DNA of 42,624 bases from Clostridia bacterium. GTDB lineage: Bacteria; Bacillota; Clostridia; Christensenellales; UBA1242. A model generated the notes under the pieces. The model was not told the origin of the DNA and searched no databases. It saw only the letters and a program-made list of their open reading frames with translations. Location of the stretch: the NCBI GenBank assembly GCA_017505165.1, contig JAFVPU010000217.1:1-42624 (forward strand), given 5' to 3'. Of the stretch, positions 1 to 37,034 are shown one piece after another; positions within the stretch are counted from its first letter, which is position 1, and every line of letters starts with the position of its first letter. Position numbers and translations under genes: made by a program.

Positions 1-471
1 ATAGCCGGCTAGAGAAACAATTCTAAAACCATCACGTTCATCAGATTCTCCAGCAGCTAATGCTTTCCGAATCTTGTCCGGAATAGAAGAAAGTTCGGAT
101 GAATCTATTTTTTGAAATTTTAACAAATATGATTTTAATACGGATGTTCCAGTATCCGTAACCTTAGCGAACATGGAACTGAGCTTCAATTTGGTTTTAA
201 AGAGAGAAGAACTTAAGTTTTCACATGCATCATCTAGATCGTTTTCGGTTATTTGATTTCCAATGAGAAATTCAATACTGGGAGTCCAACCGATAGCATC
301 AACACATTCTTTAAACAATAATAAATTATTTAAAGCTGTTTCTTTTTTGCTCAATTCACAATCTAATTCAGTTAATTCGTTTTCTAAAAGCATATATCTT
401 TCAATAGCTTCATAATGATCTTCAATTGAAAAAATCGAATCAACATCTTCATTCAATTTCAAATCTATCAT
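1..471 (-). CDS. hypothetical protein, 5' part only (runs off the left edge); paralog family member P1
   Basis: My hand translation of the minus strand from the ATG (complement of 469-471) stays open to base 1, 157 codons: MIDLKLNEDVDSIFSIEDHYEAIERYMLLENELTELD...DAIGWTPSIEFLIGNQI... AAGGAA lies 8 nt upstream. It is absent from the ORF track because it has no stop in the window. The N-terminal M-x-DL-[KG]-[LI] motif and the G-x3-[SA]-[IL]-E-[AF]-[ML]-[IV] block match ORFs 1428-2312 and 3422-4459c. Confidence 0.6.
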   Translation of the reverse strand, partial: MIDLKLNEDVDSIFSIEDHYEAIERYMLLENELTELDCELSKKETALNNLLLFKECVDAIGWTPSIEFLIGNQITENDLDDACENLSSSLFKTKLKLSSMFAKVTDTGTSVLKSYLLKFQKIDSSELSSIPDKIRKALAAGESDERDGFRIVSLAGY

Positions 472-479
472 AATTAGGT

Positions 480-523
480 TTCCTTATTGTAGATATGATA
501 TGTATCATATCTACAATAAGGAA
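480..523. repeat. perfect 21-bp inverted repeat (hairpin H1) with a 2-nt centre
   Basis: Read directly: ttccttattgtagatatgata-tg-tatcatatctacaataaggaa. It lies in a divergent intergenic region. Its outer arm (480-485) is the complement of the AAGGAA Shine-Dalgarno of the minus-strand gene starting at 471. Confidence 0.9.
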
Positions 524-539
524 CAGCTAACTAAAGATG

Positions 540-578
540 CCATACACGATGAGGGGCTGTCACCCTCATCGTGTATGG
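540..578. repeat. 16-bp inverted repeat (hairpin H2) with a 7-nt loop
   Basis: Read directly: ccatacacgatgaggg-gctgtca-ccctcatcgtgtatgg. It sits in tandem with H1 and is not downstream of any annotated gene, so its function is unclear. Confidence 0.85.
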
Positions 579-823
579 ACTTTTATGTTAACTATCAGTT
601 AGCGATGTTCTAGATGAGTCAAACAATGGAGAAACAAACCCTCACTAGAACCAGAAACGCAAACCACCATCGCCGAGAGGTAAAGGAGACCCTCTATAAC
701 TGATAATCTTACGTACTCGTTTCGCCCGGATGACAGCCAAGTACGCATAGTATGCTCATTACAGCAGAACCCCATTCTATGAGTACTATAACAAGTTAAA
801 CCTATAATAAAATAGAGGGCAAA

Positions 824-1285
824 ATGGCTGAAAATATCAATGCTTTGGATAAAGCTTTAAATAACCTTGAAGATACATTTACTTCTATCAGTGGAGATAG
901 AAAGTTCCTTATAGCTAAGTTAAAACAATCAATCGATGGAATAGTCTTAAATCCTAATGAAGATAGTCCTCGTATGACTGAAGTAAAACTAGCTACTATC
1001 AAAGCTTTGGATGATCTTCTTCGTAGTGCTGAAAGTAGTGCAACAACTATGGCTAAAACACAGCTTCAGAAGAAGAGTGATGAAAACTCTGAATCTACAA
1101 AACAGATGGTTGTTGAGATGCTTAAGCAAATCAATATATCTGTTGGTATTACTACTTCTGGAGGGGTTAAGAAACCAACTGTTGATATGGAATCAGTTGT
1201 TGAGAAAGCTTGTGAAGAAACTAATCATCCAATCAGCGATGACGAGCTCACTGTACCTGAGGTTCCTCTTAAAGAGGTTGAATAA
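824..1285 (+). CDS. hypothetical acidic protein (153 aa)
   Basis: ORF track. AGAGGG lies 5 nt before the ATG. Hairpin H3 and T-rich sequence follow the stop. No recognisable domain. Confidence 0.7.
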   Translation: MAENINALDKALNNLEDTFTSISGDRKFLIAKLKQSIDGIVLNPNEDSPRMTEVKLATIKALDDLLRSAESSATTMAKTQLQKKSDENSESTKQMVVEMLKQINISVGITTSGGVKKPTVDMESVVEKACEETNHPISDDELTVPEVPLKEVE

Positions 1286-1292
1286 AAATGTA

Positions 1293-1328
1293 TTGTCTAT
1301 ATAGGTACCAAGGTACCTATATAGACAA
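1293..1328. terminator. 17-bp perfect hairpin H3
   Basis: ttgtctatataggtacc-aa-ggtacctatatagacaa, 8 nt after the stop of 824-1285, followed by actatctttgtttcttt. Confidence 0.7.
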
Positions 1329-1341
1329 ACTATCTTTGTTT

Positions 1342-1376
1342 CTTTATAACAGTATATTATAGATACTGTTATAAAG
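1342..1376. terminator. 14-bp perfect hairpin H4, second of a tandem pair
   Basis: ctttataacagtat-attatag-atactgttataaag. No U-tract follows. It lies 52 nt upstream of the ATG at 1428, so it could be a 5' UTR or processing element rather than a terminator. Confidence 0.5.
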
Positions 1377-1427
1377 AATTATAGCATTTCGTACAAGTGT
1401 GTATCCAAACTAAAGGAATTTATCATT

Positions 1428-2312
1428 ATGATGGATTTAAAATTAAACGCATTAGAAGAACACAATTCAGAATATTCATCTGAAGAGTTGCTGCTCGATT
1501 CTATGGATATCGAACTACAATTCAACGATGAACAATCAATTTTCCGTAGCATCGAACATCTTGAATTTATCAGAGACTATGTCTCTAATCACGGAATCGA
1601 TGGTTCAATTGAAGCAATGATCGATGATCAAATTTCATACACTTCATCTGAAGATCTTGTAGAAAAAATCGACATTGCCATTGAAGGTTTATTGAGTAAA
1701 GTCACTGGAAATAGCATAGACAACACTCTACAACAAATTAAACAATTCGCTGATTATTTGCTTAGAGGTCATGGAACTATTGCTAAAACAACAGGAGACC
1801 AGAAGATAAAATTCGTAGATACCAGCGAAGCCAACCCAATAGCCCCATTTATAGCAGGAATAGCTGAAGTACTAAAGAATATGGGCAATTCTTTTAAAAC
1901 ACGAAATACCCCAAATCCCGATGAAATGAATCGTGTTATAAATACCCTGCAACAATACATTTCTACAGGAAATGATATCCTTCGTAAGATGAAGATGGTA
2001 GAAATGACACACGATGAATACGCATCTGCTTATAAAGATATGTACGAAGCTGCAAGAGAAGTCCGATCCAAATTACATATGTTGGAAATGGCAAAACTAT
2101 TATGTCCAAAGTCTTCGACAGCAGACATAATAAACAAACTTGTTAAAAACAGTACTGCGAACGATAAAGAGGGTAAGAAGACCTTAAAGTCAATGACTAA
2201 TCCTGCAGTTAATGCAAGATTAAACTCGTTGATCAGAGCAGGACTTAGAATCATTAGAATAATCCTGATGAAGGGATACACACTTGTTAAAGCAATCGCA
2301 AAAGGCGAATAA
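1428..2312 (+). CDS. hypothetical protein, paralog family member P2 (294 aa)
   Basis: ORF track. AAAGGA RBS. N-terminus MMDLKLNALEE. The blocks ELQFNDEQS and SNHGIDGSIEAMIDDQI match VMQFNDEAA and ADHGNSPALEALVGSNF in 3422-4459c. Confidence 0.75.
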   Translation: MMDLKLNALEEHNSEYSSEELLLDSMDIELQFNDEQSIFRSIEHLEFIRDYVSNHGIDGSIEAMIDDQISYTSSEDLVEKIDIAIEGLLSKVTGNSIDNTLQQIKQFADYLLRGHGTIAKTTGDQKIKFVDTSEANPIAPFIAGIAEVLKNMGNSFKTRNTPNPDEMNRVINTLQQYISTGNDILRKMKMVEMTHDEYASAYKDMYEAAREVRSKLHMLEMAKLLCPKSSTADIINKLVKNSTANDKEGKKTLKSMTNPAVNARLNSLIRAGLRIIRIILMKGYTLVKAIAKGE

Positions 2313-2339
2313 TATATAGTTTATATGTTACAAGAACAG

Positions 2340-2375
2340 CTCTACATAGAGGATCATTCGATCCTCTATGTAGAG
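2340..2375. terminator. 16-bp perfect hairpin H5 at a convergent junction
   Basis: ctctacatagaggatc-attc-gatcctctatgtagag, between the stop of 1428-2312 (+) and the stop of 2386-3336 (-). Confidence 0.7.
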
Positions 2376-2385
2376 ACAGCGCATA

Positions 2386-3336
2386 TCAACTGACATGTCC
2401 GATAGCAGCAGCCATGCCACGACCGACATTCTTGATGGTGTGAACAAGAACATCAATAGCTTTCTTCACAAAGCGAAGTTTAGCACTGAGGTTCTCTGCT
2501 TCTTCATGAACACCTTTCTGGTTCTTCATGTCTTTAAGCTTATACACCATATCGATAAGTTTCACGATACGATCAGCATATTCAACCAAAGAAGCTTTGG
2601 TATAACCTTTATCAGCAAGAGTACCACCATTAGAAGAAGTCATGTGTGCTCCTACTGTACTTGCAGGCCACGATATTCCAACAATAGCAGTACCGAGAAT
2701 CTTACCAATCCAATCACCACCAACTGCTTTCCAATCAGTAGTAATGATCTTACTGACATCACCTTTACCAGGATTGACATCGATACCACACTTACGAAGA
2801 GCTTCAGAAAGTGTACCAAGATCAAACTTAGGATCATTGATAGTACTTTCAATACCTTTAGCAAGCTGTTCAAGACCATCCATAAGGATTTTCATCTGCG
2901 ATGCAGGAGGGAGATAAAGAGAACGAGCTGTCCAGTTATCAAATTTCTCCTGGTCAACAGTGAGTTTAGCCTTAGCACAGATAGAACGAATGCGACTGAA
3001 GCGAGCAAGAATCGCACCTGCGATCATGCCAGCAACGCCCCAGCGAAGAAAGTCCTGAAGGAGATGTTCATTACTGGATTCCATACGAGCGATGATCTGT
3101 TCTTTAGGCTGTTCAGTACCAAAACAATCAACAAAAGTCTGATCGTTTGAAAGAAACTGAATAGCAATGTTCTCATCCGATGCAGAATCAATCATGTTGA
3201 ACAGACGACTCATTTCATCATACTGACGAGAATCAAGATCAAGAACATCATCGCCTTCCAGAACATCAAGAAGATATTCTTTCATATCGAACTCTTCAGC
3301 AGAAGGTTCGTTATTGATTCCGAGATCAATGTTCAT
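2386..3336 (-). CDS. hypothetical protein, paralog family member P3 (316 aa), probably an abundant virion protein
   Basis: ORF track. AAAGGTGA RBS. N-terminus MNIDLGINNEPSAEE. Codon usage is visibly more G/C-rich than in the neighbouring genes. Confidence 0.8.
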   Translation of the reverse strand: MNIDLGINNEPSAEEFDMKEYLLDVLEGDDVLDLDSRQYDEMSRLFNMIDSASDENIAIQFLSNDQTFVDCFGTEQPKEQIIARMESSNEHLLQDFLRWGVAGMIAGAILARFSRIRSICAKAKLTVDQEKFDNWTARSLYLPPASQMKILMDGLEQLAKGIESTINDPKFDLGTLSEALRKCGIDVNPGKGDVSKIITTDWKAVGGDWIGKILGTAIVGISWPASTVGAHMTSSNGGTLADKGYTKASLVEYADRIVKLIDMVYKLKDMKNQKGVHEEAENLSAKLRFVKKAIDVLVHTIKNVGRGMAAAIGHVS

Positions 3337-3364
3337 ATTTCACCTTTATTAAACAAAATAAAAA

Positions 3365-3398
3365 TAAGAGACATGTGTGTTAACACACATGTCTCTTA
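3365..3398. terminator. 34-nt perfect palindrome H6; intrinsic terminator on the minus strand
   Basis: taagagacatgtgtgt-ta-acacacatgtctctta. On the minus strand it is followed by TTTTTATTTTG, and then by the RBS of the gene starting at 3336. Confidence 0.8.
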
Positions 3399-3421
3399 CT
3401 AATCAAGTCAAAAGAGACTTA

Positions 3422-4459
3422 TTACTTGCTTTTCGGTTTGAAAGCAGACAGCGCATAAGAAGCATCGGCAATGGATTCGCGAGTAGCTTTTGCAAGATAC
3501 TTGCTGAACTCAGAGTGATACTTCATAACGCGAGAACGAAAGTCACCAGAAGCTTCGTCTTTTTTCTCGGCATTGGCGCGTTTGACATTGTCGTTCGTGG
3601 TCTTGCGTTGCTCAGCAGTCATACCGGCAGCTTCGGCTTGCGCCTTCGTCACCTGTTTGTTACTGTACTGTTCTTTTGTGATAGCGAAAGAATTCTTTTC
3701 GATACCATCAGCAACACGATCGATTTCAGCTTTGGCAGCTTCGAGAACAACAAGACGCTGCTCAAGTTTTTCAAGCAAAGCAATAGCTTTTTCGCCTTTA
3801 CCAGCAGAAACTTCAACTTCAGAACCAGCAGCCACCTTGAGCATACGTTCAAGCGGATCTTTTCCACTTTCAGTTTTTTTGGTGAATTCTTCAGTATCGA
3901 TTTTGAGATCAGGATCGTTAAGTGAAGCATTAACTTTCTTGATCGCATTGGCGAACAGCTCTTTCATCGCGTTGTTATTGTATTCGATAACACTCAATTC
4001 AGGAACTTTGATGACGAGTTTTTCGATACCACCAGCATTCTTAATAGCCTGGATACGTTCACGAATTTTGGTACGCATGGCTTTGGAAGAGCTGAAAAAT
4101 TTGGCAAAGAAAGCTTTGATTTTGGCCCAGAGGGTTTTCAGCCATTTGACGAAACGAGCCCAAAGACCTTCTTTGGCGTTTCCAGCGGCCTCGAGAGAGA
4201 AACCTTCACGGAAGTTGCTGCCAACGAGAGCTTCGAGAGCGGGGCTGTTACCATGATCTGCGAGAACTTCGCAGATAGCGCCGAGGTTCTCCATAGCGCT
4301 AGCAATAGCGCCGATGCCATCGGCGATAACAACTGCTTCAGCAGCTTCATCATTGAACTGCATGACAGTATCGAGATATTCATAAGAGAGAATATCACCG
4401 GTCACTTCAAGTTCCTGCTGATCAGCAAGAGCTTCGAGACCCAGATCGAATTTACTCAT
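3422..4459 (-). CDS. hypothetical protein, paralog family member P4 (345 aa), probably an abundant virion protein
   Basis: I trimmed ORF track entry 3422-4573 to the internal ATG at 4459 (MSKFDLGLEALADQQELE), which has AAGGAG 8 nt upstream. The 38 upstream codons have no RBS and a non-protein-like composition. The coding sequence is Ala/Lys/Glu-rich with G/C-rich codons. Confidence 0.8.
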   Translation of the reverse strand: MSKFDLGLEALADQQELEVTGDILSYEYLDTVMQFNDEAAEAVVIADGIGAIASAMENLGAICEVLADHGNSPALEALVGSNFREGFSLEAAGNAKEGLWARFVKWLKTLWAKIKAFFAKFFSSSKAMRTKIRERIQAIKNAGGIEKLVIKVPELSVIEYNNNAMKELFANAIKKVNASLNDPDLKIDTEEFTKKTESGKDPLERMLKVAAGSEVEVSAGKGEKAIALLEKLEQRLVVLEAAKAEIDRVADGIEKNSFAITKEQYSNKQVTKAQAEAAGMTAEQRKTTNDNVKRANAEKKDEASGDFRSRVMKYHSEFSKYLAKATRESIADASYALSAFKPKSK

Positions 4460-4659
4460 AAGAGAATCTCCTTGAATAACATTTGTTTGATCAATTCCAT
4501 ATGGGCTTCTTCCAGCACTTAAAAGAATATGGAATACGATTTTGTTGTAAAATGTGCTGATTTGGATACACACATATAATGATAGTACGCATACTTATTT
4601 ACACATAAACTTTTAATTAATAAGCACACAGTATATGATTTAACAGGAGGACATTTACT

Positions 4660-5025
4660 ATGAATGACTACGAATTACACGAAATGATATGCAATGCGTT
4701 TGGTAAATACACAGTACTAAACAAAATAAGTCTCTATGATTGTGAATTAATCGCTAGAACAATTGATAAAATCGACAACGATTTAAGTGGACCGACAACT
4801 ATACACAACTATATTACACTCAAACCTGTTAACAATAAGACAAATCTCTGTAAATCATGTAAAGAGTATATATCGAATCAAGATGGTCTTGATCTAAATT
4901 TTGAAGGTATATATCAATATGTTTCCGTTTTGTGTGAACTTGTAAAAGGTTCACTTGCTGCGAGCTTAATGAAATATACAATAACAACACCAGCCGATGA
5001 TGTTCTAAAAAGGAGAACAAAATGA
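4660..5025 (+). CDS. hypothetical protein (121 aa)
   Basis: ORF track. CAGGAGG RBS. ATGA overlap with the next ORF. Confidence 0.65.
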   Translation: MNDYELHEMICNAFGKYTVLNKISLYDCELIARTIDKIDNDLSGPTTIHNYITLKPVNNKTNLCKSCKEYISNQDGLDLNFEGIYQYVSVLCELVKGSLAASLMKYTITTPADDVLKRRTK

Positions 5026-5756
5026 ACGCTTATATCAACATGCACCTCGACGACATGATAGATGATGAAACCATTATCATACGTGATCTTTTCAATTTGG
5101 ACTTCTATGCAGAATTCGATCCATTATTCAATTATCTGTTCAAAATGGTAAGAAAGCAATACAATGAAGATAAAGTTACAACGACCATCCTCACACACGA
5201 CCAACTTGCATATAGAGCTTTTGCGTTTGCCCAACATTCATTTGCACGACACTTATCTGAAACAATAAATGTTAACCTGTATGATAAAGGTAAATTGAAT
5301 GTCTTTAAATTCTGTAAATCTGTGTTAAAATCGGATGATACATACAAAGATCCTGAAAAAGAATTGATTGCATATGCAGCACAATTCATTGATCTTATCA
5401 ACTTATTCACTTTAAAATACAGAAATGATAGAAAACTTCGAAAACTGTTAACAAACATAACAACTGAAATCAATCCTGTATTGTTTAATATCATCTCAGA
5501 ACACGTAGATAATGTTTCTGCAGGGATAGCTGCTATCGATATTATCTTTATGTTCGCATTAACACATATCCAATTATACAACTCAGATATAATCAGTGCA
5601 AAACTGACTCACACTGAACTACAGTCATTTGTACGTGATTTCTGTATGTGTTCACACCCGTGGTGGTTATCCAACGAACTTGATATAGCAAAAATCTACC
5701 ACGAAGATACACGCTTCTTCAGATTGAAATACCATATAAGAAACTTGTTCAAATAA
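5022..5756 (+). CDS. hypothetical protein (244 aa)
   Basis: ORF track. AAAGGAG RBS. Translationally coupled to 4660-5025. Confidence 0.7.
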   Translation: MNAYINMHLDDMIDDETIIIRDLFNLDFYAEFDPLFNYLFKMVRKQYNEDKVTTTILTHDQLAYRAFAFAQHSFARHLSETINVNLYDKGKLNVFKFCKSVLKSDDTYKDPEKELIAYAAQFIDLINLFTLKYRNDRKLRKLLTNITTEINPVLFNIISEHVDNVSAGIAAIDIIFMFALTHIQLYNSDIISAKLTHTELQSFVRDFCMCSHPWWLSNELDIAKIYHEDTRFFRLKYHIRNLFK

Positions 5757-5764
5757 CATAAAGC

Positions 5765-5802
5765 AAGATACTAGTGGGTCGATATCGACCCACTAGTATC
5801 TT
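5765..5802. terminator. 38-nt perfect palindrome H7 at a convergent junction
   Basis: aagatactagtgggtcgat/atcgacccactagtatctt, centred on GATATC, between the stops at 5756 (+) and 5810 (-). Confidence 0.8.
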
Positions 5803-5809
5803 CATATTT

Positions 5810-6139
5810 TTACAATCTTCCAAAATTCACAACTGTATTCGCACGAGTGAATGTCATAGGAATACTCATATCCAGTTCACTCAGCTTTCCAGTTGATGCG
5901 AGATTCTGTTTTGTCACGCCTTCTCTATATGATACGACTCCTGTAGTTGATACAGAAAATTGTCTCATATATTTGACGAAGTCGTCATATGGGATAACGT
6001 CAGAACCTATAGTAACGTCACCAGTGTTAGAATCAACCTGTGCATTTCCCAATCGTATCCATCCAGTCATCTCAGTTTTAACAGGATGTGTGGTAACTTG
6101 TTCAATACCAGTTTCACCTAGTTTAACAAAAATATTCAT
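5810..6139 (-). CDS. hypothetical protein (109 aa), last gene of the minus-strand structural block
   Basis: ORF track. AAGGAGG RBS. Confidence 0.65.
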   Translation of the reverse strand: MNIFVKLGETGIEQVTTHPVKTEMTGWIRLGNAQVDSNTGDVTIGSDVIPYDDFVKYMRQFSVSTTGVVSYREGVTKQNLASTGKLSELDMSIPMTFTRANTVVNFGRL

Positions 6140-14634: not shown

Positions 14635-16272
14635 ATGTACAATGGTTATCAGAACCAGGAACTCATGGCTGCAGAAGCTGAGTTCCAGAGACAACTGGGA
14701 AGTCTTGCTGCAACAGGAAGATTCTCTCAGCAACAGATCGCATACATCCAAAGTGTATGGGAACAACAGAAAGCGGTTGCGTATGACGGAGCCAGACAGA
14801 GACTCAACAGTCCTGTCATCGGAAGTGCCCTTACGAACTTCGTTCAGGGGTTCATCAACCTCGTCATCAAACAGATAACTTCTACTGTGCCAATGGGCAA
14901 TCCGTATGGTTACGGAATGGCAGCAGCTGGTCCGTTCATGGGAAATCCTTACGGAGGAATGCCGATGATGCAGATGAGTCCATTCTCACAGCCGTCATAT
15001 CAGCAGATGCAGGGAATCAATTACATGCCCCAGCAGACACCTGAACAGAGTAGTGGAAATCCGTATGCTTCCATACCTCAGCAGCATCCACAGACCACTC
15101 AGCAGACTGTCAAACAGGAACAGAAAGACACTGCACCTGCAAAGACGCTGACCATCAAGAAAGTGGAATATGTTGCACCTACAGTTGAAGACAACGACAC
15201 TGCATATGGAAACGAGGAACACATCACTTCGATCGGTTCCATAAAAGTAATCCCCATGAGGGATTGTATTGGTGCACCATTCAAACAGGTGATGATCAGA
15301 CTTGCACATCCGTGTCGTAACAAAATGGAAGCGATCAATCAAGCACGGTTGCTTTATAAAGACAAAAGTGTGTCTCACATTGATATCCAGTATGATCTTG
15401 CGATCACACTGCCTATCGCATATGACAAGGGAAAGAAAGTCTTCACCTCTCTCAAGAAAGCAATACCGAAAACAGTTGCCGCGGCCAACCAGCTGAAATA
15501 CATTCAAGCTATTCAGAAAGTTCTGGATGATGAAACTCGTGGTGTTGCGAATGTTCTTGAGGACTTCATGGTTGATCGGTTCAATTATGTCGCAGGTGTT
15601 GGGTGTGTTGATTGTGATTATAATGGAGTATTCTCTATTGAATCACTGAGAGCACTCATCAACTTGTCTGATAAAGACACTGCTGACAAAGCATGTCAGG
15701 CATGGCAGGCAAAAGCAGGTTTCATGAACGGTCTGATCAATTGCTGTAACAGCACGATCAAGAATGATATCACAAATTGTGAGATTCTTGACCCGTCAGA
15801 TCCGAAACGATTCATGACTATCATCAAGCACTTCACCGGACTCACTGAATCTGATGAAGGAAAGCTTATCGATGTTGGTCTGGAACTTCTTCCGAAAGCA
15901 GAAGAATTCTGTAAAGCATCTCAGAAAGAAAAAATGACCAACTTCGGAGCAGCTGGTGAAATTGTTGCAGGTTCCACAACGATTCTGTTGAAGAATCAGC
16001 ATCTTGTTCTGACTGATCTGATTCCTGAATCATCTATGGGTCGGATGTCTGACAACTCGCTATGTATTGCAGCTAAAACTCTTATCATTGGTGGTTACAC
16101 CAATGATGAACCGAATGAAATCGATAGCAACTTTGAGTACATGATGCTCAAAGCATCTCTCGGTTCCGAACATTGGGTTGATATTGTTGTCAACTACAAT
16201 CAGGTTCTCATGAGTATGAAAGCTGTTCAGTCTATTGATAAATGGACTGTCATCACACCAACCACATTCTGA
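14635..16272 (+). CDS. hypothetical protein (545 aa) with an N-proximal Q/P/M/G/Y low-complexity domain
   Basis: ORF track. TAGGAGA RBS. Residues about 86-163 contain three GNPY repeats and many Q, P and M residues. The C-terminal roughly 380 aa look globular and Cys-containing. Confidence 0.75.
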   Translation: MYNGYQNQELMAAEAEFQRQLGSLAATGRFSQQQIAYIQSVWEQQKAVAYDGARQRLNSPVIGSALTNFVQGFINLVIKQITSTVPMGNPYGYGMAAAGPFMGNPYGGMPMMQMSPFSQPSYQQMQGINYMPQQTPEQSSGNPYASIPQQHPQTTQQTVKQEQKDTAPAKTLTIKKVEYVAPTVEDNDTAYGNEEHITSIGSIKVIPMRDCIGAPFKQVMIRLAHPCRNKMEAINQARLLYKDKSVSHIDIQYDLAITLPIAYDKGKKVFTSLKKAIPKTVAAANQLKYIQAIQKVLDDETRGVANVLEDFMVDRFNYVAGVGCVDCDYNGVFSIESLRALINLSDKDTADKACQAWQAKAGFMNGLINCCNSTIKNDITNCEILDPSDPKRFMTIIKHFTGLTESDEGKLIDVGLELLPKAEEFCKASQKEKMTNFGAAGEIVAGSTTILLKNQHLVLTDLIPESSMGRMSDNSLCIAAKTLIIGGYTNDEPNEIDSNFEYMMLKASLGSEHWVDIVVNYNQVLMSMKAVQSIDKWTVITPTTF

Positions 16273-35547: not shown

Positions 35548-35751
35548 ATGGCAAATATTGCATTCGACATTTCTAGTGCGCTGTATGTTGAAGGTGCACA
35601 GAAAAATTTTCAACCAGATGAAAATGGTGTGTGGAAAGACTTTCCTGTTATGGTAATAGGAAAAGTAAGTCGCAACAACAAGGAGTATGAAGTAAACTCC
35701 ATGGTAGACGCTATCACCAATCCTGGTTCTATTTTTTATAAAAAACTTTAA
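35548..35751 (+). CDS. T4 gp21-like prohead protease, N-terminal fragment (67 aa) ending at an in-frame TAA
   Basis: TGGAG RBS. ...KVSRNNKEYEVNSMVDAI... resembles gp21 ...VVNRNKRLYPKRILEKAV... It is in the same frame as 35752-36333, separated from it only by TAA 35749-35751. Confidence 0.55.
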   Translation: MANIAFDISSALYVEGAQKNFQPDENGVWKDFPVMVIGKVSRNNKEYEVNSMVDAITNPGSIFYKKL

Positions 35752-36333
35752 ATGGGTCAGCTTCACGGAGAATACGGACATCCTCTCGTTCTTTGTGAAA
35801 AAGACCTTCCTCGCATTGCTGTTGTTGATCCAACAAAAGTATCACATGTTATTCACAGTGTGAGATGTGGTGAACCAACAGAAAAAGGTCATCGCATCGT
35901 CTATGCTGACATTGAACCATTTGGTCCATATGGCGAGTATCTTGAAAAATCTCTTCGTAATCCAAGAATCAACACAGCATTCTCTTTGAGAAGTTTGGTT
36001 TCTAAAATCGGAACTTCTGGAAACGTGATCAAACAGAGAGTTACAGCGCTTATCACGATTGATGCTGTAGACGCACCTGGTTACGCAGAAGCATCAAAAG
36101 TCCGTGTTCCTTCTATGGAAGGAATCAGTATCGATATTGAGCATCCTGAAGATCACCTAGAAGAGCTTGCTATGGCATGCGGATGTGAGTCCGTAGATGA
36201 TCAACAATTGCTTGATACTTTACAAGTCAATAAGGTTGAAATCAAACACAGTATCAATGGTATCGTCGATGTCAATGGTCGACTCATATCTACTTCAAAC
36301 GGAAAGAAATCACTCTTTCACGAGTTATTCTAA
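35752..36333 (+). CDS. T4 gp21-like prohead protease, catalytic portion (193 aa)
   Basis: GEYGHP ~ gp21 GELNHP; AFSLRSLVS ~ GVSSRGLGS; ITIDAVDAPGYAEA ~ VGVDAVWGPSAPDA (gp21 sequence recalled from memory). ATG 35752 has no Shine-Dalgarno and directly abuts the TAA of the upstream fragment. Confidence 0.6.
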   Translation: MGQLHGEYGHPLVLCEKDLPRIAVVDPTKVSHVIHSVRCGEPTEKGHRIVYADIEPFGPYGEYLEKSLRNPRINTAFSLRSLVSKIGTSGNVIKQRVTALITIDAVDAPGYAEASKVRVPSMEGISIDIEHPEDHLEELAMACGCESVDDQQLLDTLQVNKVEIKHSINGIVDVNGRLISTSNGKKSLFHELF

Positions 36334-36350: not shown

Positions 36351-37034
36351 ATGTACGATTACGACGAATCAGAAGCATCGTTTTTCGACGAGCTTCAGGT
36401 AGCACCTCCAGTTGCACCAATTGAAAGTCCTGCTAACCCTGTAAATCCTAATGCACCAAAAGTGCCTGGGAATATTCCTATTGGATCTCCTATGGAGTCT
36501 GGGTTTGTAACAGTTATTCCTAATGGAGAACGTAAAAAGTATGTTTGCAATATCGACTGGTTTGTTGGAAAACCAGATCCGTACATGAACATCACACATA
36601 TTCTCTATACTGCTGAACCTGGTGACGAAGTTGTGTTCAATTTGTATTCTTATGGAGGTTCTGTTGAAACAGGATGCATGATCATCAATGCTATCAAGAA
36701 TACTAAAGCGACCGTTACAACAGTGGCGTTTGGATTGTGTGCATCTATCGCTGCTATGATCTGGTCATGTGGACACATACGTGAAGTTATGCCAACCGCT
36801 ACTATCATGTACCATATGCCATCTGGTATGGTTTTTGGTAAAACAGCAGATAATGAAGAAGAATCTCGTCATATCCAAGGATACTTCAGTGAATTCATGC
36901 GTGAAGTTACTAAAGGTATCCTAACTGAAGATGAACTTGATAAGATCATCAATAAACGTATGGATATGTTTATCCCTGCAGCAACTATTCAAGCAAGACT
37001 TGCTGTAACTAAAGAGGAGAATACAAATGAGTAA
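36351..37034 (+). CDS. ClpP-family (clan SK, S14-like) serine peptidase (227 aa)
   Basis: AAAGGAG RBS. VVFNLYSYGGSVETGCMIINAIKNTKATVTTVAFGLCASIAAMIWSCG...IMYHMPSG...KRMDMFIPA aligns with E. coli ClpP [43 protein letters not shown]...VMIHQPLG...RDRFLSA. Ser, His and Asp all fall at the expected positions. It has a Pro-rich N-terminal extension. Confidence 0.7.
   Translation: MYDYDESEASFFDELQVAPPVAPIESPANPVNPNAPKVPGNIPIGSPMESGFVTVIPNGERKKYVCNIDWFVGKPDPYMNITHILYTAEPGDEVVFNLYSYGGSVETGCMIINAIKNTKATVTTVAFGLCASIAAMIWSCGHIREVMPTATIMYHMPSGMVFGKTADNEEESRHIQGYFSEFMREVTKGILTEDELDKIINKRMDMFIPAATIQARLAVTKEENTNE

What the first reader, a model, noticed from the sequence alone, without database searches (positions are those of the whole stretch)
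1..4459. Four paralogous proteins sharing an M-x-DL-[KG]-[LI] N-terminus followed by x-x-E: candidate capsid-targeting/propeptide signal
N-termini:
- P1 MIDLKLNEDVD (471c)
- P2 MMDLKLNALEEHN (1428)
- P3 MNIDLGINNEPSAEE (3336c)
- P4 MSKFDLGLEALADQQELE (4459c)
P1, P2 and P4 also share a G-x3-[SA]-[IL]-E-[AF]-[ML]-[IV] block (GWTPSIEFLIG / GIDGSIEAMID / GNSPALEALVG). P2 and P4 share QFNDE. Each has an x-x-E within the first 8-14 residues (LNE, ALE, NNE/SAE, GLE). T4 gp21 removes the N-terminal capsid targeting sequence of internal proteins at L/I-x-E. phiKZ-type proteases cut head and inner-body proteins at S/A/G-x-E. P3 and P4 have the same G/C-rich codon bias as the sheath and tube genes, suggesting abundance. 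I infer an expanded family of packaged (ejected or inner-body-like) proteins with a shared targeting/cleavage leader.
Basis: partly seen in the sequence, partly recalled or inferred. Interest (0 to 1): 0.65.

Follow-up and report, generated by a model that had tools for sequence, protein, structure and literature searches.

The report
Jumbo-phage internal head protein paralogs
Four neighbouring genes of an uncultured phiKZ-like giant gut phage encode diverged copies of the known "internal head protein" family, which share a short N-terminal leader, an acidic front part and a conserved protease-cutting motif; this arrangement is already documented in phages phiKZ and SPN3US, so it is a new example, not a new mechanism.

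Summary
All four ORFs exist at the stated coordinates and start M-x(0-3)-[DN]-L-[GK]-[LI].

They are homologous at profile level:
- P4 passes Pfam PF12699 (phiKZ_IP), 35.9 bits against a cut-off of 27.
- The P2 family matches the P4 family (95%, E 4e-8).
- P1 matches the P2 family (67%, E 5e-5).
- P3 matches only through a 55-member profile (95%, E 2e-8).

Every protein has the same layout: a leader, then about 90 acidic residues (net -16 to -19), then a conserved [SAG]-x-E (ACE-84, AIE-86, SNE-90, SLE-90/AKE-97), then a basic helical body. The contig also encodes a Peptidase_S80 prohead protease, the enzyme family that cuts at [SAG]-x-E.

This matches published data. SPN3US gp53 and gp54 have identical 15-residue N-termini and propeptides of 125-137 residues. 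phiKZ gp93 is cut at SLE-13.

It needs two corrections:
- The main cut most likely lies near residue 84-97, not only in the first 8-14 residues.
- By analogy with phiKZ gp93, the segment after the leader may stay bound to the capsid.

The modest new points are the LGLE-type leader consensus and the P3 subfamily, which no Pfam or PHROG model covers. No cleavage or virion data exist for this phage.

The parts
3422..4459 (-). P4, 345 aa. PF12699 (phiKZ_IP) internal head protein, and the best-conserved and probably most abundant member.
   Evidence: Pfam PF12699 at 35.9 bits against a cut-off of 27. phrog_2497 and phrog_5750, 'internal head protein'. 26 homologs, nearly all carrying PF12699. AF2 model is all-helical, pLDDT 66. 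GC3 0.419.
4433..4459 (-). P4 leader MSKFDLGLE, ending in G-L-E-9, a candidate first cut.
   Evidence: L6, G7 and L8 are invariant and GLE is kept in 23/26 homologs. Parallels SLE-13 of phiKZ gp93 (PMC5694885).
4169..4198 (-). P4 SLE-90 ... AKE-97, a double candidate maturation site directly before the helix GLWARFVKWLKTLWAKIKAFF.
   Evidence: Kept as [SAG]-x-E in 24/26 and 23/26 homologs. SLE-90 aligns with the mapped AQE-125 of SPN3US gp53. AKE-97 aligns with SNE-90 of P3. Coordinates checked.
2386..3336 (-). P3, 316 aa. Diverged member of the same superfamily, in a subfamily that no Pfam or PHROG model covers.
   Evidence: 76 cluster representatives. No Pfam or PHROG match. Wide profile against the P4 family: 95.3%, E 2.1e-8, 150 columns starting at Met1.
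3067..3075 (-). P3 S-N-E-90, candidate maturation site before HLLQDFLRWG.
   Evidence: [SAG]-x-E is kept in 51/55 members of the wide family, and E90 is the only nearly invariant residue besides M1 and G244.
3313..3336 (-). P3 leader MNIDLGIN.
   Evidence: Distant family members start MELGLEAL, MNLGLEAL, MKIDLGLEAL or MPLSLGLENL, which is the P4-type leader.
1428..2312 (+). P2, 294 aa. Paralog related to P4 over its N-terminal ~120 residues.
   Evidence: BLASTP against P4, E 4e-5. P2 family against P4 family, 95%, E 4e-8. Does not reach the Pfam cut-off on its own.
1677..1685 (+). P2 A-I-E-86, candidate maturation site before GLLSKV.
   Evidence: Kept as [SAG]-x-E in 6/6 family members. Aligned to the P4 AKE|GLW region.
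1..471 (-). P1, 157 of 164 aa. A P2-like paralog that is dispensable and possibly decaying.
   Evidence: BLASTP against P2, E 0.002. Against the P2 family, 67%, E 5e-5, 124 columns from residue 1. Full length and the in-frame TAA are seen in L009. Absent from relative L005. Lowest GC3 on the contig.
220..228 (-). P1 A-C-E-84, candidate maturation site.
   Evidence: Aligned with AIE-86 of P2. Coordinates checked.
35548..36333 (+). Peptidase_S80 (phiKZ gp175 / SPN3US gp245 type) prohead protease, the presumed processing enzyme. In this assembly it is interrupted by TAA at 35749-35751.
   Evidence: PF20034 at 85-105 bits. phrog_3014. The stop is visible. Other samples read AAA, and most cluster members are 261 aa.

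Best explanation
P1-P4 are an expanded set of phiKZ-type internal head (inner-body / ejection) proteins, of the PF12699 kind, in an uncultured phiKZ-like jumbo phage from gut metagenomes.

Each is made as a precursor with four parts:
1. A short shared leader, whose family consensus (taken as ancestral) is M-x(0-3)-[DN]-L-G-L-E-[AS]-L.
2. A strongly acidic N-terminal region of about 80-90 residues.
3. A conserved [SAG]-x-E site at residue 84-97.
4. A basic, helix-rich body that evolves fast.

Inferred mechanism, by homology with SPN3US gp53/gp54 and phiKZ gp93/gp162:
- The N-terminal region brings the precursor into the assembling prohead.
- The phage's S80 prohead protease cuts after Glu at the [SAG]-x-E sites. 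An early cut follows the leader where one exists (GLE-9 in P4, ALE-10 in P2). The main cut comes just before the first body helix.
- The acidic piece is either expelled or, as for gp93 residues 14-84, stays bound under the capsid shell.
- The basic body stays inside the head with the DNA and is probably ejected into the host.

Shown here: homology, the shared layout, motif conservation and the presence of the protease gene. Inferred only: targeting, actual cleavage positions, virion location and ejection.
For: **Family membership.** P4 passes Pfam PF12699 and hits the 'internal head protein' PHROGs.

**Homology chain.**
- P2 family to P4 family: 95%, E 4e-8.
- P1 to P2 family: E 5e-5.
- P3 wide family to P4 family: 95.3%, E 2.1e-8, collinear from Met1.
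- Reference profile (gp53/54/93/94/95) to P4 family: 79.5%, E 1.5e-5, placing gp53's mapped AQE-125 on SLE-90.

**Shared layout.**
- Residues 1-90 carry net charge -16 to -19; the rest carries +4 to +14.
- [SAG]-x-E conservation: SNE-90 51/55, SLE-90 24/26, AKE-97 23/26, AIE-86 6/6. Sites in the P4 body are kept in only 2-3/26.
- In the P4 family the leader and residues 25-125 are about twice as conserved as the body: 0.71 and 0.68 against 0.32.

**Enzyme and context.** An S80 protease lies on the same contig and is intact in sister samples. The contig is phiKZ-like, with sheath and virion PHROGs.

**Literature.**
- gp53 and gp54 have identical 15-aa N-termini with AXE-12 and SXE-15 and propeptides of 125 and 137 aa; gp93 is cut at SLE-13; each phage has 2-7 paralogs (PMC5694885, PMC10052503).
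- The phiKZ paralogs gp93, gp94 and gp95 all have S-L-E at residue 11-13.
- gp93 residues 14-84 and gp162 residues 19-134 are bound to the inner capsid surface (PMC11297242).

**Not recent copying.** There are no DNA-level repeats between the genes, so the leader is kept at protein level.
Against: - There are no proteomic, structural or expression data for this phage, and no RNA run was found.
- Only P4 passes the Pfam threshold. P2 and P3 do not match the phiKZ/SPN3US reference profile directly.
- The close-homolog P3 profile gave only 26%.
- The AF2 models have modest confidence, and the fold searches gave nothing significant.
- The early [SAG]-x-E is not at a fixed position. In P1 and P3 the residue right after the leader does not fit the motif.
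- Some family members lack the leader, for example L013 3329-4357 and many wide-family P3 members.
- The protease gene in this particular assembly carries a nonsense codon.
Confidence: 0.75

Rival explanations
1. The shared N-terminus is only a leftover of common descent among duplicated genes. It has no role of its own as a signal or as a cut site.
For: The four proteins are homologous over 100-150 N-terminal residues, so a similar start is expected. Some family members lack the leader.
Against: In the P4 family the leader is more conserved than the stretch that follows it, 0.71 against 0.42. It survives between subfamilies that BLASTP can no longer connect (against 38, 70). phiKZ and SPN3US paralogs show the same selective conservation, and the site in gp93 is cut in experiments (PMC5694885). 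The leader's G-L-E is itself a protease motif.
Confidence: 0.12
2. A T4-style short capsid-targeting sequence. Only the first 8-17 residues are removed, at an x-x-E, and the rest of the protein is the mature packaged form.
For: Each protein has an early x-x-E, and P4 and P2 have good [SAG]-x-E at residues 9 and 10. T4 internal proteins work this way (PMC5694885, introduction).
Against: The protease is S80, not T4 gp21. The homologous SPN3US proteins lose 125-137 residues (PMC10052503). The best-conserved site in all four lies at residue 84-97. The charge switch from acidic to basic occurs there. LNE (P1) and NNE (P3) do not fit the S80 motif.
Confidence: 0.08
3. They are scaffold or core proteins that are fully degraded and expelled during maturation, so nothing remains in the virion.
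For: They are helical and acidic at the front, carry several [SAG]-x-E motifs and sit in a head-assembly gene region.
Against: Motifs in the C-terminal body are not conserved, at 2-3/26 in the P4 family. The body is basic. Family homologs in phiKZ and SPN3US are abundant in mature heads (PMC5694885).
Confidence: 0.05

Closest known systems
SPN3US 'paralog family A', gp53 and gp54 (pfam12699), the major ejection proteins
   Same: Adjacent paralogs with a selectively conserved N-terminus that holds an early A/S-x-E. Both have a long acidic propeptide. The maturation cut comes directly before an amphipathic helix: AQE|GWKETL and ARE|SLWDDI there, against AKE|GLWARF and SNE|HLLQDF here. gp54 has a double site (E-124 and E-137), like SLE-90 and AKE-97 in P4. 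An S80 protease is present in both.
   Different: The leader sequence differs: MANFVKSKLARESVE there, M..DLGLEAL here. The propeptides here are shorter, about 85-97 aa against 125-137. The proteins here are smaller, 294-345 aa against about 420. Only the region around the cut site is detectably similar. There are no experimental data here.
phiKZ inner-body proteins gp93, gp94, gp95, gp162 and gp163 (PF12699)
   Same: A multi-copy paralog family in a phiKZ-like phage. It has a shared short leader ending in S-L-E at residue 11-13, a helix-rich body and gp175 processing at S/A/G-x-E.
   Different: The phiKZ proteins are longer, 435-547 aa, with long variable inserts after the leader. BLAST finds no similarity. 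In phiKZ the post-leader segment is known to bind the capsid shell, which is only a guess here.
T4 internal proteins (IPI-III, Alt) with a capsid targeting sequence
   Same: The concept is the same: an N-terminal signal directs a protein into the prohead core, the prohead protease removes it after Glu, and the product is packaged and ejected.
   Different: The family is unrelated and the protease family differs (gp21, motif L/I-x-E). The T4 signal is only 10-20 residues and has been shown to be sufficient for targeting. Sufficiency is untested here, and the removed part is probably far longer.

Membership tests
Pfam PF12699 phiKZ_IP (phiKZ-like internal head proteins) | Scores above the curated gathering cut-off (27 bits) | tested here: met
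   P4 scores 35.9 bits, E 6.7e-9, and 36.2 bits in the six-frame search. This holds for P4 only. P1, P2 and P3 give no hit.
Pfam PF12699 phiKZ_IP (phiKZ-like internal head proteins) | For P1, P2 and P3: profile-level homology to a member that passes the cut-off | tested here: met
   P2 family against P4 family: 95%, E 4e-8. P3 wide family against P4 family: 95.3%, E 2.1e-8. P1 against P2 family: 67%, E 5e-5, which is the weakest link. None matches the phiKZ/SPN3US reference profile directly, so membership is transitive and limited to the N-terminal 100-150 residues.
Pfam PF12699 phiKZ_IP (phiKZ-like internal head proteins) | Helix-rich body domain | tested here: inconclusive
   The AF2 models are almost wholly helical but of modest confidence, pLDDT 66 and 60. 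Foldseek found nothing at E <= 0.001, although the top hits are mostly jumbo-phage virion or internal head proteins.
Substrates of S80 (gp175/gp245-type) prohead protease | Conserved S/A/G-x-E motif at the boundary between the N-terminal region and the body | tested here: met
   ACE-84; AIE-86 (6/6); SNE-90 (51/55); SLE-90 (24/26); AKE-97 (23/26). These are aligned with each other and with gp53 AQE-125.
Substrates of S80 (gp175/gp245-type) prohead protease | A cognate S80 protease is encoded by the same phage | tested here: met
   PF20034 at 85-105 bits, window 35548-36333. This assembly has a TAA at 35749, but sister samples read AAA and most cluster members are 261 aa.
Substrates of S80 (gp175/gp245-type) prohead protease | Cleavage actually occurs after the Glu of the motif | not testable with these tools
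   This needs mass spectrometry of particles or an in-vitro protease assay.
Internal head / ejection proteins (functional class) | Present inside the mature capsid and ejected with the DNA | not testable with these tools
   The phage is uncultured and known only from gut metagenomes. No RNA runs were found.
T4-type capsid targeting sequence (CTS) | A 10-20-residue N-terminal peptide, cut at L/I-x-E by a gp21-type protease, that is sufficient for targeting | tested here: not met
   The protease is S80, not gp21-type. The conserved common site lies at residue 84-97. Sufficiency for targeting is not testable here. The resemblance is functional only.

The most novel reading that the evidence does not exclude
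The M-x-[DN]-L-G-L-E-[AS]-L leader is a portable prohead-entry tag of this uncultured gut jumbo-phage clade. It is carried both by classical PF12699 proteins and by the uncharacterised P3 subfamily (QDFLRWG motif plus a Gly/Ala-rich hydrophobic segment). If so, the leader together with a downstream [SAG]-x-E could be used to predict the packaged, ejected proteome of uncultured jumbo phages from sequence alone. The P3 subfamily would then be a new class of ejected protein, possibly membrane-active.
Probability: 0.25. Interest if true: 0.5.

Novelty: new member of a known kind. Interest (0 to 1): 0.3.

Why it matters
Internal head and ejection proteins are the first phage molecules to enter the host, yet they are poorly understood even in the model jumbo phages.

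This locus shows that one precursor layout extends to a very distant, uncultured gut clade that BLAST cannot link to any cultured phage. That layout is a shared leader, an acidic N-terminal region, a conserved [SAG]-x-E site and a basic helical body. The locus also yields a simple sequence rule, and a set of marker peptides, for finding such proteins in metagenomes and metaproteomes.

It adds one subfamily, P3 with 76 cluster representatives, that current Pfam and PHROG models miss. It does not reveal a new mechanism.

Tried and rejected
- megablast of window 1-6000 and tblastn of P2, P3, P4 and three distant homologs against 50,697 phage records: no match. No cultured relative can lend annotation.
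- IMG/VR scan with P4: nothing.
- Direct hhalign of the phiKZ/SPN3US reference profile against the P2 and P3 families: no similarity.
- Close-homolog P3 profile against the P4 family: only 26%. The link needed the wide profile.
- Foldseek against BFVD for both AF2 models: no hit at E <= 0.001 and TM-scores of 0.2-0.3. I did not use this as evidence.
- The idea that cleavage exposes a membrane-active helix, or that P3 has transmembrane segments: the hydrophobic moment of P4 98-122 is not significant against shuffles (p 0.07), and P3's best Kyte-Doolittle window scores 1.3. Dropped to speculation.
- The idea that the in-frame TAAs reflect recoding: there is no suppressor tRNA in the bin, and other samples read AAA at the protease site. 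Rejected for the protease; open for P1.
- Whether the ORF after P1's stop is the missing body of P1: no significant similarity to the P2 or P4 bodies. Unresolved.
- Whether the 153-aa ORF at 824-1285 belongs to the family: no similarity.
- Recent gene conversion as the source of the shared leader: no DNA repeats, and the codons differ.

Full report
**What is there.** The window is a whole 42.6-kb contig (C218) of a 230-contig metagenomic bin. It is a piece of a phiKZ-like jumbo phage. It carries a tail sheath (phrog_3242), several phiKZ-type virion protein PHROGs, an RNA-polymerase beta-like gene and a Peptidase_S80 prohead protease. Near-identical sequence occurs in gut and faecal metagenomes from several independent studies. 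Relatives with about 250-kb contigs exist.

The four ORFs of the finding are real and begin as stated:
- P1: 1-471 (-)
- P2: 1428-2312 (+)
- P3: 2386-3336 (-)
- P4: 3422-4459 (-)

**Is the similarity more than chance?**
- BLASTP links P4 to P2 (E 4e-5 over 118 N-terminal residues) and P2 to P1 (E 0.002). It finds nothing for P3.
- After collecting homologs, profile comparison is clear. The P2 family matches the P4 family at 95%, E 4e-8. P1 matches the P2 family at 67%, E 5e-5, from residue 1.
- A 55-member P3 profile matches the P4 family at 95.3%, E 2.1e-8, over 150 columns starting at the initiator Met. The narrower P3 profile had given only 26%.
- The strict leader pattern hits 29 of 25,059 candidate starts in the bin. 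Four distinct genes among those hits are these neighbours.
- The LGL leader core is present in 26/26 P4-family, 13/18 P3-family and 16/54 wide-P3-family members, against 1.2% of background ORFs.
- Distant P3 relatives and P2 relatives start M..LGLE[AS]L, exactly like the P4 family. The family consensus, taken as ancestral, is therefore M-x(0-3)-[DN]-L-G-L-E-[AS]-L.
- The genes share no DNA repeats and use different codons for the leader. It is therefore kept at protein level.

**What they are.** P4 passes Pfam PF12699, 'phiKZ-like phage internal head proteins', at 35.9 bits against a cut-off of 27. It also hits two 'internal head protein' PHROGs. Nearly all its homologs carry PF12699. P1, P2 and P3 do not reach Pfam on their own, and the P3 subfamily has no Pfam or PHROG model at all. 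The bin holds at least two more members:
- a 5'-truncated ORF at the start of C3, containing GSSPALEALIG...SMEAEEAA (E 3e-6);
- probably C65:3505-4494, containing MFDLKL...YSLEAW.

**Common layout.**
- In all four proteins, residues 1-90 are strongly acidic (net -16 to -19) and the remainder is basic (net +4 to +14).
- At the switch lies a conserved [SAG]-x-E. These are ACE-84 in P1, AIE-86 in P2 (6/6), SNE-90 in P3 (51/55 of the wide family) and SLE-90 plus AKE-97 in P4 (24/26 and 23/26).
- These sites align with each other.
- In contrast, [SAG]-x-E motifs in the P4 body are kept in only 2-3/26 members.
- In the P4 family the leader (0.71) and residues 25-125 (about 0.68) are twice as conserved as the body (0.32).
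- The AF2 models are helical with disordered leaders, at modest confidence.

**Comparison with what is known.** I fetched the characterised proteins and confirmed that they match PF12699 strongly.
- phiKZ gp93, gp94 and gp95 begin MSLLKMLDKLSLES, MNLNKLLDSLEG and MTFKLNEYLDSLED. All three have a shared short leader ending in S-L-E at residue 11-13.
- PMC5694885 reports several relevant facts. gp93 is cut at SLE-13. SPN3US gp53 and gp54 ('paralog family A', pfam12699) have identical 15-residue N-termini carrying AXE-12 and SXE-15, although they are only 34% identical overall. Phages carry 2-7 such paralogs.
- PMC10052503 maps the maturation cuts at AQE-125|GWKETLKDLFER (gp53) and ARE-137|SLWDDIK (gp54), with a second gp54 cut at E-124.
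- A profile of these five proteins aligns gp53's AQE-125 with P4's SLE-90 (79.5%, E 1.5e-5). P4's AKE-97|GLWARFVKW lies seven residues further on, which echoes gp54's double site.
- The 2024 phiKZ capsid structure (PMC11297242) shows gp93 residues 14-84 and gp162 residues 19-134 bound to the inner face of the shell between capsomers. The helix-rich C-terminal domains are released by cleavage, presumably for the inner body.

**Most likely mechanism (inferred).** The N-terminal region, with the leader at its tip, recruits each precursor to the assembling prohead. The S80 protease then cuts after Glu. It cuts early where a motif follows the leader (GLE-9, ALE-10; less clearly SIE-17 and SAE-14). 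It makes its main cut at residue 84-97. The acidic segment either leaves or remains as a capsid-bound strap, and the basic helical body stays with the DNA. The higher conservation of the N-terminal region fits a partner that evolves slowly, such as the capsid or core. The fast-evolving body fits host-facing ejected proteins.

**The protease.** In this assembly the S80 frame reads ...SIFYKKL*MGQLHGEYGHP, with TAA at 35749-35751. Contigs from three other runs read A at 35749 (AAA, Lys). The contigs of a fourth run end exactly there. Eight of the nine other members of the 90% cluster are 261 aa. The lineage therefore has an intact enzyme, and the stop is a local variant or an assembly choice.

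**P1.** A public scaffold extending 1,250 bases further left (L009) shows P1 ending after 164 aa at a TAA. The frame then stays open for 178 more codons, which would give a 343-aa read-through product, the normal family size. The downstream part has no significant similarity to the P2 or P4 bodies. The relative L005 lacks P1 altogether, and P1 has the lowest GC3 on the contig. P1 is best seen as a dispensable and possibly decaying duplicate of the P2 type. This is not settled.

**Verdict.** It needs three corrections. The conserved maturation site is at residue 84-97, not only in the first 8-14. T4's L/I-x-E rule is not the relevant one. Part of the N-terminal region may be retained on the capsid instead of being discarded. 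The phenomenon is already described for phiKZ and SPN3US, so this is a new member of a known kind. Two modest additions are the LGLE leader consensus and a P3 subfamily missed by current family models.

Noticed in passing
window 35548-36333 (stop at 35749-35751): The S80 prohead protease gene is split by a single in-frame TAA directly followed by ATG. Three other metagenome runs read AAA there, and most cluster members are 261 aa, so it is a local nonsense variant or an assembly choice.
   Followed up: yes
L009 1227-1229 (22-24 bases left of window position 1): P1 ends at an in-frame TAA after 164 codons, and the frame stays open for 178 more codons (343 aa read-through, the normal family size). 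Two assemblies, the window and L010, end about 22 bases from this stop, which suggests sequence heterogeneity there. This is the second in-frame TAA in a head gene of this assembly. No suppressor tRNA was found in the bin.
   Followed up: partly
window 480-523, 1340-1378, 2340-2375, 3365-3398: Four perfect intergenic palindromes with 16-21-nt arms flank the paralog genes. The one at 480-523 includes the AAGGAA Shine-Dalgarno of P1. The one at 2340-2375 lies between the convergent ends of P2 and P3 and looks like a two-way terminator.
   Followed up: no
G000 contig C3:1-1059 (+) and contig C65:3505-4494 (+): Further family members on other contigs of the bin. The C3 ORF is 5'-truncated and contains GSSPALEALIG...SMEAEEAA (hmmsearch E 3e-6). 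The C65 ORF is 329 aa and starts MFDLKL, with YSLEAW at residue 75-80.
   Followed up: partly
window 824-1285 (+): A 153-aa ORF (MAENINALDKALNNLEDTF...) sits inside the paralog cluster and is conserved in the relative L005. It has no family match and no detectable similarity to the paralogs. Its start loosely resembles the phiKZ leader pattern LDK.L..LE.
   Followed up: partly
window 14635-16272 (+): A 545-aa ORF with no PHROG match has the third-highest GC3 on the contig (0.44, like the sheath and the putative tube gene). This suggests a very highly expressed protein of unknown identity.
   Followed up: no
window 36351-37034 (+): A ClpP-like protease gene (PF00574, 63.8 bits) lies directly downstream of the S80 prohead protease. 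A ClpP-like gene also lies near the PF12699 gene in the distant relative L013.
   Followed up: no
L013 3329-4357 (+): In a distant relative, a 342-aa protein next to the PF12699 gene has the family hallmarks (ILSYPYQLDEMD, YSLE|INNIF) but starts MEQKDISHVY. The leader is therefore not universal.
   Followed up: no
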